Shown: one piece after another, positions 39,346-63,977 of the stretch
Layout of the letters: every line of letters starts with the position of its first letter
Position numbering within the stretch: position 1 is the first letter of the stretch
Assembly: GCA_002633005.1 (NCBI GenBank)
Contig: NMRA01000595.1
Coordinates: forward strand, 34,423-98,422
DNA length: 64,000 nt
Source: Phoronis australis
Lineage: Eukaryota > Animalia > Phoronida
Reading direction: 5' to 3'
The notes under the pieces: model-generated
The model's input: the letters and a program-made list of their open reading frames with translations, nothing else
The model's database searches: none
What the model was told of the DNA's origin: nothing
Position numbers and translations under genes: made by a program

Positions 39346-39594
39346 ATGATGAATATGAATCTGCCATTGGCATTATGCGTAGTACTTTTAAGTGTTTCTA
39401 TTGGTCAAGCAGCCGTGACAATCAAGGACAATCGCTGTGAAGAATCGACGCCTTCTGGAATCGTGTACAAGGCATGCCTGGGAGCGAGTACATATCCAAA
39501 ACCATACGGCAACACAACAGTACTGATCTCGCCCAGCGATATAACTTGTGGAAACCCTGCAAAGGATTATATTGACTTTAAGACACAGACTCCA
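39346..39594 (+). CDS. Laminin coding exon 1 (signal peptide, LN start)
   Basis: ATG 39346, upstream acceptor at 39322, CCA|gtaagt. Confidence 0.88.
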
Positions 39595-42500
39595 GTAAGT
39601 TCCCATTCTCTCTGCAGTGTAGCAAATGTTGACCATCCATTATTTGTGAAATTCACATTATATCCAGGTTCTCATTCACTTCCTTAAACACTTTAATGAG
39701 TAAAACAGAGCTGAGAGGAGTGGGAGACACCTTTGTGTTATGGTCAATTGTCAGCCAGTAAAGCCAGGCTTTGAACTCAAAGGGGGGTCCACGGCTCAAA
39801 CCACTGAGCCACTCTAATGAAACTTGACTCCAAAGTATGTCCTTTTCAATTTTGCACCTGTGACCTGTGAATTGTACTAAGAATGTTATTCAACAAAGTC
39901 AGCTTTCCATTACTAGATGTTTTTCGAAACATTTTTGTGCGATATTCAAGTTCCGGAAGTCGAAAGTGTGAGTCAAATTTGTCCACCTTATCCAGCATGG
40001 CTGTTTTGTGCTGTACTGTGAACTGTTGTTTAAAATTTAAGTGAAGTTATAGTAAACTTCTATTGACATTTCATTAAGGTTTTTGTGTTTATAAATTAAT
40101 CCATTGGTGCTTGTGTATAAATCGCAAACATCCTTATAGGTTTCAAAACTTTTTAGTGGCTCTGATACAGAATTTTCAAATTTGACGGAAATTACATATA
40201 AATCCATTAGTTCAAAAGTCCATGTTTGTACTGTGGTGAGTTTGTGTGCCACTGTATAACTTTGACTGTATTGTTGTCAAAAGACCAAAATGTCTTGATT
40301 TGCTTAAGAAATGACTTGTCTCTCATTTTGCAATTAGATTTTCAAACTCTTATGTGATCCAAACTTGTCTAGATAAAATTCATCAAACTTGTAGCTGTGA
40401 TGAGTCCAAATAGGTTTTGCGGAAAACTGCTTTTATGTTGTACATAATTGATGAAAGAAATGAATGACCTTAGTTTACCACTGCTATAGCCTAGAGTACT
40501 TATTGGTGTCTGGTGCAATGAGCACACGCCTGATGAAACATCGTGTATTAAACAAATAGGGCACTCTTTTGAATGCCCATAGCGATTGTTCATTGCTTGG
40601 AAGACTGTTTTTTATCATTCTAATTATTTCTTGCTTCTTAGGAAAAGTGCAGTGGAGACCAGCACTCAGCTGAGAAACTTTATGACTTCAAGCGTAGAAG
40701 GCCAGACTTCACCACATGGTGGCAATCACAAACGTGCACTGACTATGGTGCAGACATTCAGGCGGTGATCACAATCTCATTCGGCAAGATGCTTATGCTG
40801 GCTGACAATATCGACATTGATTTTCGCTCGGCTCGGCCACGCGATGCCGTCATAGAAAAGTCCATGGATTATGGAAAAACATGGACGCCGCTGCAAGCTT
40901 TCTCACGTGACTGCAGCAAGTATACGTCGATTGTGAAGAACGGTACAAAAGTTTATGGGAACGTTGAGGATATTACTCTGGAGAAGCCATACACTGTTGT
41001 GTGTGATGAGAGATACAGTGGACCTGTGGCCAGCCCAATGATTCTTGGCATTTTGGAGAGGTAAGGAGAGGAGAGTGAGATAGGGGGGTCGGCAAGGCAT
41101 TCACTGAATGTGTCACCACAGGGATTATAGGATGCTCGGAGGTGTTGAGTCAGAGGACAGGTGGAGAAAGGAGGGTGGAGGGGGGCAGAAGAGATCTGAT
41201 GTGTGAAAGGGGATATGATAGTAGTATGGAGCAAGGAAGGGCGAGAGGCTCATGTAAGTGGAGAGTTTGGGGGAGGGTGGTATGAAATAACGGAGGCGTT
41301 GGAATTGGGATTGGTGCTATGAGAGGGATGGGGAAATGAGAGAATGATAATTGTCTATAGATAAATGGTGGTATATAAGTATCCTTCGGACTTTTTTAAT
41401 GAATGACTGCTTTTTCATGTAGTTCTTTAATTATTTTTACTGCACTCTTACAAATTAAATCGTTTCGGAATTACTGACCAGAGTTACTAGTGAGCAAGAA
41501 ATTTGAAGTAAAACAGACAACATGCATGCTCAGATGACAAGGCCGCAGCTATAAATACGCAGTCTTCTGGGTAAATGTCAAATACACGTTGTTTGTATTC
41601 TCACACTCAATTTCAATTTTTTGAAAGGTCAAACAGCATTGTGGGTAAGGTCATGCAGCATTGTGGGTAAATTCAAGCGATTCAATCTTAGTAGACAAGA
41701 TGAGGGAACGAAAAACGTAAAGAGAAAACATTTATCATTAAGTCATGGAGTTAATTATGACAAAATCTTTGTGAAGAAATGAAAAAAAATGTCAATGAAT
41801 TTATTAAGTAATAGCTTTATAGATTAATTCACTCTGTTTATCACTAATGCGTTAACGTTTTTGTAGGTACCGTGATGTCTTCGGTATTGGGCCGGGCAGT
41901 GACCTCAACCCCCTGTACAGGTCATTCAATATGACCCCGTGGAATGACTTCCACCTGCTGAGTGACCTGAGGATTCACCTGACCAACCCGGCCATCGACG
42001 GCTGTGGAACATCCAGCACTTACGTGGATCAGCTGATGAGTTTCTTCGCCATTTCCCACATCACTATAGCGACAAGGTAAGAATGAAGGTTTTGTGGCTG
42101 TTTACCCTAGATGACCTTTCATGATTGGTCAGATGAATCGTCTGCTCAATGAATTAACTCCCTTTTTACTACAGTAAAGTGACTTAAATTGATTTTTTGT
42201 CCCATTTCACGTGGTTTTATTACTTATTAGTTTTTTAACTTATCTGTTCCTAATAATCCTTTTGTTAAATAAATTTTACTGTCATTGGGAGATTGGATTG
42301 TTGAATTGTGGATAAAACTGTAAGTCAACTGACAGTTTTTTTTGTGAGCTAAGATTTATTTCAGCAAGCAAGGGCCTTGTATTGCCTTGCCTTTGTGAGC
42401 ACACAAGTTAGTGTCTTCAATGGTGTCTGGCAAAGTTAGAAAAAGTATGTCTTTGCTACTTTTAGTCACAAATTAATAGATTTACTTATCAAACAAACTT

Positions 42501-63500: not shown

Positions 63501-63977
63501 TCATGTTATTCGGTCGGTGAATTGTGTCAGATAGTGAAAAATGACAGATAATTGCAATGAAATGTGTTATTTGTTTTACAAGCGCTGAAAAACTCTTTGG
63601 CTTCAAAGTACATTTCACGACGGTTGTATATGGATTTAAAGTTAGATTATAATGTTGTATGAGTCATAGTGTTGTAGTGTAATGTATCGAAATATGTTTG
63701 AGTCTCATTTCTGTAGACAAACTGTTTCTGCTTCTACAGTCCAACCAAGCTTTGGTCACTAACCAGACAACAGCGGAGAAAGTGAGGAATTCTCAGCAAG
63801 TCACAGGCCAGCTTACAAACGATGTAGTGGCACTGCTCGGCCAATCAGAAAGGGTTTTACAAAATGCCCAGACTGCACATGCTCAGGCTGAGGCAGCCAG
63901 CCAATTAGAAGCTGACACATTCAGAAGGGCAGAAGAAATGTTGTTAGTAATGAAGGAGTTTGATCAACAATCAACAG
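39346..63977 (+). CDS. Laminin chain with hybrid beta/gamma architecture (SP-LN-LE-LF/IVB-LE-L4/IVA-LE-coiled coil), 3'-partial
   Basis: 24 exons join in frame with GT-AG sites; signal peptide [24 protein letters not shown] motifs TWWQS and [19 protein letters not shown]; many 8-Cys LE repeats; IDSLVILP (LF); [13 protein letters not shown] and VEQCAC (L4); CDACYQLV then heptad-rich sequence. Confidence 0.93.
39752..39813 (-). mobile_element. Degenerate tRNA-derived SINE head
   Basis: Minus strand has an A-box-like TGGCTCAGTGG and a B-box-like GAGTTCAAAGCC; no complete cloverleaf. Confidence 0.4.
40642..41060 (+). CDS. Laminin exon 2 (LN domain)
   Basis: [15 protein letters not shown]...TTWWQS...[22 protein letters not shown]|gtaagg. 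Confidence 0.92.
41867..42076 (+). CDS. Laminin exon 3 (LN end)
   Basis: ...[11 protein letters not shown]...[11 protein letters not shown]; phase 2-2. Confidence 0.9.
42705..42877 (+). CDS. Laminin exon 4 (LE1)
   Basis: [35 protein letters not shown]. Confidence 0.93.
43874..43959. repeat. 38-bp tandem repeat (about 2.3 copies) with an internal palindrome
   Basis: tgtactgtatggctgtagtatacagtacagtcactgct repeated. Confidence 0.8.
44391..44558 (+). CDS. Laminin exon 5 (LE2)
   Basis: [35 protein letters not shown]. Confidence 0.93.
45048..45227 (+). CDS. Laminin exon 6 (LE3)
   Basis: [30 protein letters not shown]. Confidence 0.92.
45762..45910 (+). CDS. Laminin exon 7 (LE4)
   Basis: [35 protein letters not shown]. 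Confidence 0.92.
46483..46778 (+). CDS. Laminin exon 8 (truncated LE5 + LF start)
   Basis: [45 protein letters not shown]. Confidence 0.9.
47268..47455 (+). CDS. Laminin exon 9 (LF/IV-B)
   Basis: tttcag|T ACA TTC ATG..CCT G|gtgagt; [15 protein letters not shown]... Confidence 0.82.
47757..47918 (+). CDS. Laminin exon 10 (LF/IV-B)
   Basis: [28 protein letters not shown]. Confidence 0.88.
49150..49287 (+). CDS. Laminin exon 11 (LF end)
   Basis: [28 protein letters not shown]; phase 1-1. Confidence 0.88.
49763..50265. mobile_element. MITE with CAGGGCTTGGAAT TIRs and 6-bp TSD (hAT-like)
   Basis: atcaaa|CAGGGCTTGGAAT ... ATTCCAAGCCCTG|atcaaa; subterminal ttccgc repeats. Confidence 0.8.
50403..50549 (+). 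CDS. Laminin exon 12 (LE)
   Basis: [39 protein letters not shown]. Confidence 0.93.
51185..51301 (+). CDS. Laminin exon 13 (LE, first half)
   Basis: [38 protein letters not shown]. Confidence 0.9.
51653..51860 (+). CDS. Laminin exon 14 (LE)
   Basis: [45 protein letters not shown]. Confidence 0.92.
52893..53126 (+). CDS. Laminin exon 15 (LE + entry to L4)
   Basis: [46 protein letters not shown]. Confidence 0.93.
53769..54058 (+). CDS. Laminin exon 16 (L4/IV-A)
   Basis: [32 protein letters not shown]. Confidence 0.88.
54538..54699 (+). CDS. Laminin exon 17 (L4 end)
   Basis: [24 protein letters not shown]. Confidence 0.9.
55018..55130. repeat. Imperfect (CAA/CAG)n microsatellite in a laminin intron
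   Basis: Direct reading. Confidence 0.8.
55168..55428 (+). CDS. Laminin exon 18 (LE)
   Basis: [46 protein letters not shown]. Confidence 0.92.
58440..58580 (+). CDS. Laminin exon 19 (last LE)
   Basis: [45 protein letters not shown]. Confidence 0.93.
58933..59108 (+). CDS. Laminin exon 20 (coiled-coil start)
   Basis: [23 protein letters not shown]... Confidence 0.9.
59268..59538. mobile_element. Truncated left end of a TA-target Tc1/mariner-pogo-like element
   Basis: ta|CCGTATTCGCCGTAATAACCGCCC..taagcgccc repeats; absent from the duplicate flank 59540-59679; cut by N at 59539. Confidence 0.6.
60454..60670 (+). CDS. Laminin exon 21 (coiled coil)
   Basis: [25 protein letters not shown]..; phase 0-1. 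Confidence 0.85.
61209..61390 (+). CDS. Laminin exon 22 (coiled coil)
   Basis: [23 protein letters not shown]..; phase 1-0. Confidence 0.85.
61959..62222 (+). CDS. Laminin exon 23 (coiled coil)
   Basis: [23 protein letters not shown]; phase 0-0. Confidence 0.85.
63740..63977 (+). CDS. Laminin exon 24 (coiled coil; gene continues beyond window)
   Basis: ctacag|TCC AAC CAA..ACA G|gtaac. Confidence 0.85.

What the first reader, a model, noticed from the sequence alone, without database searches (positions are those of the whole stretch)
39346..63977. Laminin chain combining beta-type LF (IV-B) and gamma-type L4 (IV-A) domains: a beta/gamma hybrid
Seen in sequence: after LN and 4 LE modules, exon 8 has a truncated LE lacking its last cysteines ([13 protein letters not shown], like beta1 GRQCNEVEPGYY). 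A non-Cys globular domain follows with IDSLVILP, ending [23 protein letters not shown] (like beta1 CRNIIFSISALLHQTGLACECDP). Four LEs later comes [20 protein letters not shown], then [13 protein letters not shown]...VEQCAC, and the rod starts CDACYQLV, all gamma1-like. Established knowledge: canonical beta chains have LF only and gamma chains L4 only. From memory (needs checking), beta/gamma-like chains carrying both have been reported in a few basal animals and invertebrates but not in vertebrates, flies or nematodes. Inference: this is a retained ancestral or chimeric fourth chain type that could build non-canonical heterotrimers.
Basis: partly seen in the sequence, partly recalled or inferred. 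Interest (0 to 1): 0.8.

Follow-up and report, generated by a model that had tools for sequence, protein, structure and literature searches.

The report
Ordinary invertebrate laminin beta/gamma-like chain
This spliced, expressed gene encodes the already described 'beta/gamma-like' laminin chain, a fourth chain type that many invertebrates keep and that vertebrates and flies are reported to lack, and it likely takes the gamma position in the three-chain laminin molecule, which has not been tested.

Summary
Twenty-four GT..AG exons (39346-63977, + strand) give 1656 open codons: LN, 5 LE (the fifth with six Cys), LF, 4 LE, an LE split by L4, more LE and a coiled-coil rod that runs off the window. 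RNA reads show 12 of 23 junctions exactly as modelled. A profile of canonical beta LF domains matches exons 8-11 (30.8 bits; best of 1000 shuffles 11.7), and Pfam Laminin_B matches exon 16.

It is not a new hybrid. It is an ordinary member of the laminin beta/gamma-like chain type (Fahey and Degnan 2012, seen through citing papers). All seven segments hit this group best, and nine database proteins have the identical domain string. The N-terminus groups with these chains and netrin-G (99/98), and grouping with beta, gamma or alpha is rejected. The host is probably a spiralian invertebrate, inside the reported range.

Inferred and untested: the knob-less rod is closer to gamma-1 than to beta, so the chain likely fills the gamma slot. 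Its orthologues lack the gamma-tail Glu and the terminal Cys. Mollusc and annelid orthologues also have a membrane-anchored isoform, which I did not find here.

The parts
39346..42076 (+). Exons 1-3 (39346-39594, 40642-41060, 41867-42076): hydrophobic N-terminus (likely signal peptide, judged by eye) and LN domain of netrin-G / beta-gamma-like type
   Evidence: Pfam Laminin_N E=1.8e-20; best PDB match netrin-G1 E=6e-20, against 2e-5 for beta-1 and gamma-1; E1-E2 junction in RNA
42705..45910 (+). Exons 4-7 (42705-42877, 44391-44558, 45048-45227, 45762-45910): LE1-LE4
   Evidence: Pfam EGF_laminin in each; E4-E5 junction in RNA
46495..46587 (+). LE5 in exon 8 (46483-46778): six Cys, lacks the 7-8 disulfide
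   Evidence: Cys list; same arrangement as beta-2 LE5 (PMC5338690 passages)
46615..49287 (+). LF (IV-B) domain: rest of exon 8 and exons 9-11 (47268-47455, 47757-47918, 49150-49287)
   Evidence: Beta-LF HMM with shuffle control; hhalign of 12 group members including the window against the beta LF alignment, probability 98.8%; E9-10 and E10-11 junctions
50403..53126 (+). Exons 12-15 (50403-50549, 51185-51301, 51653-51860, 52893-53126): four LE modules (one with an insert shared with the orthologues) and Cys 1-3 of the split LE
   Evidence: LE HMM; alignment; E12-13, E14-15 and E15-16 junctions
53080..54668 (+). L4 (IV-A) domain inserted between Cys 3 and 4 of an LE: end of exon 15, exon 16 (53769-54058) and most of exon 17 (54538-54699)
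   Evidence: Pfam Laminin_B E=4.1e-9; alpha/gamma L4 HMM with shuffle control; E15-16, E16-17 and E17-18 junctions
55168..58580 (+). Exons 18-19 (55168-55428, 58440-58580): end of the split LE, one-and-a-half LE and a last LE (the short array typical of the bilaterian group)
   Evidence: E18-19 junction
58933..63977 (+). Exons 20-24 (58933-59108, 60454-60670, 61209-61390, 61959-62222, 63740-63977): CxxC and the first 354 residues of the coiled-coil rod, with no Cys knob; about 220 residues are expected beyond the window
   Evidence: 209 bits against an HMM of 15 orthologous rods; periodicity test; E22-23 and E23-24 junctions; orthologous tails of 573-584 aa

Best explanation
The gene encodes a laminin beta/gamma-like chain of the bilaterian group that also contains netrin-G, and the chain likely joins an alpha and a beta chain through its coiled-coil rod, in the place of gamma. 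Shown: domain order, splicing and expression, and orthology of every segment to that group (identity about 0.95). Inferred from established laminin biology: secretion, and assembly into a heterotrimer through the rod, with LF and L4 as side globules on a continuous LE rod. Inferred from comparison (about 0.6): it takes the gamma slot, because the rod has no beta knob, matches gamma in length and scores closer to gamma-1. Inferred from orthologues only, because the C-terminus lies outside the window: such a trimer would lack the C-terminal beta-gamma disulfide and the gamma-tail Glu, and so would bind integrins poorly, as gamma-3 laminins do. Its LN keeps the Asp and Thr of the gamma-type calcium site but has lost the hairpin Cys pair, so it may be a poor network node and act more as a modifier or a receptor ligand.
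For: Best BLAST hit is a group member for 7 of 7 segments among 128 proteins. The domain string is identical in 9 of 36 candidates. In the LN+LE1-3 tree the window lies in a 99/98 clade with 7 group members and 2 netrin-G; AU tests reject beta, gamma and alpha. This matches the published nesting of netrin-G inside beta/gamma-like chains (PMC3516229 section 13). An HMM of 15 orthologous rods scores the window 209 bits, sea-cucumber gamma-1 98.7, 65 beta rods median 7.7 (max 24.4), 7 alpha rods max 24.1 and shuffles max 11.0; hhalign gives gamma 97.9% against beta 96.0%. The Cys knob is present in 63 of 65 beta rods and in 0 of 15 orthologues, 0 of 3 gamma rods and not in the window. None of 15 orthologues has Glu third from the end or a Cys in the last 8 residues, whereas sea-cucumber gamma-1 has that Glu. 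Gamma-3 lacks the Glu and integrin binding (PMC11260871 passages).
Against: The gamma-slot step rests on one invertebrate gamma-1 rod. Both gamma-3 rods scored below zero against the same HMM, and the hhalign margin over beta is small. The rod, LF and L4 trees are poorly resolved and do not place the group next to gamma. The window's own C-terminus is not in hand, so absence of LG domains, terminal Cys and Glu was not seen directly. Eleven of 23 junctions are not listed in the RNA tables, two of them between LF and L4. No genome is held, so canonical beta and gamma genes could not be checked.
Confidence: 0.6

Rival explanations
1. Same chain type, but it fills the beta slot (alpha + this chain + gamma), so the trimer keeps the integrin-binding gamma tail.
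For: It has the beta-type LE5-LF unit. Its orthologues end, like beta chains, without a gamma-type tail, which would keep the trimer functional for integrins. hhalign to beta rods is still 96%.
Against: No beta knob; rod length and HMM score favour gamma-1. The LN lacks the hairpin and the Ser described as key for beta-gamma contacts (PMC8388930 passage).
Confidence: 0.22
2. Same chain type, but its main product works outside the canonical trimer, for example as a short secreted or membrane-bound arm acting like netrin-G.
For: Mollusc and annelid orthologues have an LN-5LE-LF-LE-transmembrane form; the two Patella vulgata isoforms are identical for 869 residues. The LN is closest to netrin-G. 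Sense-strand reads cover part of intron 18.
Against: No transmembrane exon or tail motif was found in the window by tblastn, acceptor scan or HMM over 2965 six-frame ORFs. The only listed joint from exon 12 goes to exon 13, and rod exons are spliced and expressed.
Confidence: 0.12
3. Two neighbouring genes or transcripts (a beta-like front and a gamma-like back) that the model wrongly joins.
For: Junctions E11-12 and E13-14 are not listed in the cut RNA tables.
Against: Phases match at all 23 introns. The full chain is collinear with single proteins at 28-37% identity over up to 1611 columns. No second signal peptide or LN is present.
Confidence: 0.03
4. A recent beta-gamma chimera made in this lineage, or an alpha-3/5-type chain.
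For: Mixed domain content; alpha-3/5 chains also have an insert after a truncated LE plus an L4 (PMC5338690 passage).
Against: AU tests reject the window with beta (p=0.0004), gamma (p=3e-41) and alpha (p=0.0002). All segments hit one group best. The insert is 214 aa after LE5, as in beta/gamma-like chains.
Confidence: 0.03

Closest known systems
Laminin beta/gamma-like chain (Fahey and Degnan 2012, doi 10.1093/molbev/mss060, not held; seen through PMC3516229 and PMC10280926 passages). Database members under wrong automatic names include S. purpuratus XP_793215.4 (P0017), Patella vulgata XP_050395638.2 (P0129), Aplysia (P0029), Saccoglossus (P0027), Branchiostoma belcheri (P0012) and Lineus (P0042)
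   Same: LN-5LE-LF-4LE-L4-short LE array-rod in the same order; insert in the second LE after LF; knob-less rod; LN in one clade with netrin-G
   Different: Only sequence divergence (28-37% identity; long branch in the LN tree). The LN hairpin and the start of L4 are shorter, as in the limpet, Aplysia and amphioxus members. The E-x-E at the start of LF seen in amphioxus is K-x-S here, so the LF calcium site is likely lost.
Netrin-G1/G2 (PDB 3ZYJ, 3ZYG, 3TBD)
   Same: Closest LN among solved structures; same clade
   Different: Netrin-G is a short membrane-anchored protein without LF, L4 or rod
Canonical laminin beta chains (LF structure PDB 5LF2)
   Same: Six-Cys LE5 followed by LF with the helical Cys pair
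   Different: Different LN clade; beta has no L4, has the Cys knob in the rod and ends in Cys
Canonical laminin gamma chains (gamma-1; gamma-3 as functional analogue)
   Same: L4 inside a split LE; rod starting CxxC-Y, without knob, of similar length; Asp/Thr of the LN calcium site
   Different: Different LN clade; extra LE5-LF-4LE block; shorter LE array after L4; orthologues lack the C-terminal Cys and Glu

Membership tests
Laminin beta/gamma-like chain | LF (IV-B) after a truncated LE5 | tested here: met
   (Pfam on single exons gave only E=0.052)
Laminin beta/gamma-like chain | L4 (IV-A) inside a split LE in the same chain | tested here: met
Laminin beta/gamma-like chain | LN+LE1-3 groups with beta/gamma-like chains and netrin-G | tested here: met
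   99/98 support and AU tests; SH-aLRT 99 in the 61-row quick tree
Laminin beta/gamma-like chain | One transcript holding LF and L4 | tested here: inconclusive
   12 of 23 junctions listed; E11-12 and E13-14 not listed; tables cut; short reads only
Laminin beta/gamma-like chain | Coiled-coil rod ending without LG domains | not testable with these tools
   Rod present but cut by the window end; no genome held; orthologues end about 220 aa further on without LG
Canonical laminin beta | Beta-clade LN, no L4, Cys knob in the rod | tested here: not met
   AU p=0.0004; L4 present; no Cys in 354 rod residues
Canonical laminin gamma | Gamma-clade LN, no LF | tested here: not met
   AU p=3e-41; LF present
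Laminin alpha-3/5 | Alpha-clade LN | tested here: not met
   AU p=0.0002
Any laminin chain | Assembly into a heterotrimer and deposition in basement membrane | not testable with these tools
   Needs protein work

The most novel reading that the evidence does not exclude
Bilaterian beta/gamma-like chains are a gamma substitute that makes an integrin-blind, weakly polymerising laminin displaying a netrin-G-type tip. The same gene yields, in molluscs and annelids, a membrane-anchored short arm with a conserved C-terminal motif, so cell-surface display of this tip predates chordate netrin-G. I found no paper on the function of these chains or on the membrane form (9 searches; the two primary papers were not held).
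Probability: 0.3. Interest if true: 0.6.

Novelty: new member of a known kind. Interest (0 to 1): 0.27.

Why it matters
As a finding it mainly corrects annotation: these chains sit in databases under alpha, beta or gamma names. It adds a divergent, expressed member of a chain type whose trimer position and function I could not find tested. If the gamma-slot inference holds, many invertebrates build a second class of laminin that would bind integrins poorly, and the ancestor of netrin-G was a working laminin chain with a membrane-bound isoform.

Tried and rejected
No whole genome is held, so I could not look for canonical beta and gamma genes or the 3' end. A homolog search with exon 2 found nothing. 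Exon 1 had no significant PDB match. No RNA holder was listed by the index; the three raw-read runs came by species label. Single-domain trees for LF, L4 and rod were weakly resolved. The 61-row LN tree is the quick one, with 12 of the named rows left out for short or redundant matches; the 22 rows were my choice. Window + netrin-G as a clade is not rejected (p=0.25), and window + the second LF+L4 group is only marginally rejected (p=0.033). Host lineage: the full-length tree (18 rows, 1614 columns) puts the window outside the echinoderm-hemichordate clade, in an open fork with spiralians and amphioxus; the Atlas search with the upstream RING protein was uninformative. The search for a transmembrane exon in the window was negative. 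No structure or complex prediction was run: the window's domains span introns, and a coiled-coil job would not tell the slots apart. Fahey and Degnan 2012 and Whittaker 2006 are not held. The supplement of PMC3516229 (fig. S3, the taxon list of these chains) could not be read; it may already cover the host lineage and the two groups.
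Full report
Observation. I read 39201-64000 and set exon borders by hand. The 24 exons splice with GT..AG at 23 of 23 introns into 1656 codons without a stop, still open at 63977. Pfam on the 24 exon-bearing ORFs gave Laminin_N (exon 2), EGF_laminin (10 ORFs), Laminin_B (exon 16) and only a sub-threshold LAMININ_IV_B match (exon 10, E=0.052). 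LF is split over four exons, so I tested the spliced protein in a script. An HMM from 71 canonical beta LF domains covers aa 569-770, and the segment scores 30.8 bits against at most 11.7 for 1000 shuffles. An HMM from 7 alpha and gamma L4 domains covers aa 1021-1159, with 34.8 bits against 9.7. LE5 has six Cys, and L4 sits between Cys 3 and 4 of an LE, as described for beta and gamma chains (PMC5338690, passages).

Expression. Three raw RNA runs under the same species label were laid on 39201-59200 and 45001-64000, about a fifth of each run being read. Twelve of 23 junctions are listed at the modelled bases, all in sense orientation: E1-2, E4-5, E9-10, E10-11, E12-13, E14-15, E15-16, E16-17, E17-18, E18-19, E22-23 and E23-24. 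The other 11 are not listed; depth is low, repeats in introns 11 and 12 dominate, and 25 and 8 rows were not shown. A single LF+L4 transcript is therefore likely but not fully bridged.

Identity. An exon-15 search returned an amphioxus protein collinear with the window. Searching with it returned 356 proteins, of which 120 were listed. I labelled 36 as candidates by rank and domain content; my profiles found both LF and L4 in 29 of them and the window's exact domain string in 9. They come from echinoderms, hemichordates, amphioxus, gastropods, annelids, a nemertean and cnidarians, under alpha, beta or gamma names. For 7 of 7 segments the best of 128 proteins is a candidate. Exon 2 matches netrin-G1 best among solved structures (E=6e-20; beta-1 and gamma-1 2e-5). 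Its best hit among 1.84 billion representatives is a limpet chain of this architecture. In a 22-row LN+LE1-3 tree the window lies in a 99/98 clade with bilaterian members and netrin-G. AU tests reject beta (p=0.0004), gamma (3e-41) and alpha (0.0002), and do not reject netrin-G (0.25). The 61-row quick tree agrees.

Known status. PMC3516229 (passages and section 13) calls laminin beta/gamma-like a described group, present in eumetazoans except ecdysozoans, urochordates and vertebrates, with netrin-G nested inside. [quoted passage not shown] The primary paper is not held. Passages of PMC12549020, PMC3308698 and PMC5395295 showed nothing on this chain. The host is not given. A full-length tree places the window outside echinoderms and hemichordates, in an open fork with spiralians and amphioxus, and unchecked notes on the same genome suggest a mollusc. 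Both lie in the reported range.

Mechanism. Laminin chains assemble through the rod, polymerise through LN, and carry L4 and LF as side globules of unknown function (PMC6744579, passages). Which slot does this chain take? The window's 354 rod residues have no Cys, although they span the place of the knob found in 63 of 65 beta rods. An HMM of 15 orthologous rods scores the window 209 bits, one invertebrate gamma-1 98.7 and beta rods at most 24.4; two gamma-3 rods score below zero. I infer the gamma slot at about 0.6. None of 15 orthologues has Glu third from the end or a terminal Cys. In vertebrates that Glu is needed for integrin binding, and gamma-3 lacks it (PMC11260871, passages), so the trimer would likely bind integrins poorly. 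The window's LN keeps the Asp and Thr that by position match the gamma-1 calcium site, but lacks the hairpin Cys pair and the beta Ser (PMC8388930, passages), so a normal network role is doubtful. These steps are inference; the domain trees for LF, L4 and rod do not resolve them.

Verdict. What remains open is the function of the type, not this gene's identity.

Noticed in passing
Proteins P0129/P0273 (Patella vulgata), P0143, P0032 (Owenia), P0034 (Bradybaena), P0004, P0030: Mollusc and annelid orthologues have a second form: LN-5LE-LF-(LE)-transmembrane helix-cytoplasmic tail, ending in a shared motif in four of them. The Patella isoforms X1 and X2 are identical for 869 residues. No matching exon was found in the window, and no paper on it.
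   Followed up: partly
Proteins P0036, P0269, P0040, P0050 against P0017, P0129 and others: LF+L4 laminins fall into two groups. The window's group has a short LE array after L4 and holds netrin-G. A second group (a second echinoderm gene, anthozoans) has seven LE after L4, a terminal Cys and a rod that groups with beta rods (97.8/100).
   Followed up: partly
window 55779-57046 (intron 18): Sense-strand RNA depth of 0.35-2.5 at 97% likeness, while other intron bins are empty; possibly a retained intron or an alternative 3' end giving a rod-less short arm.
   Followed up: no
window 21964-22972 (+): Last exons of a whirlin-like PDZ gene (best PDB match whirlin, E=9e-17).
   Followed up: partly
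window 32758-34110 (+) and 30130-30318 (-): A long exon ending in a RING finger (the resemblance to ZSWIM2 is recalled, not tested) and, on the other strand, a weak Sen15 match (E=8e-4, below cut-off).
   Followed up: no
window 7265-7880 vs 9211-9810; 26192-26860 vs 27501-28130; about 59127-59260 vs 59540-59680: Near-identical duplicated stretches, some next to an N; tandem duplications or assembly artefacts.
   Followed up: no
window 49760-50270 and 50786-50870: Abundant transcribed repeats in introns 11 and 12 (depth in the hundreds to thousands).
   Followed up: no
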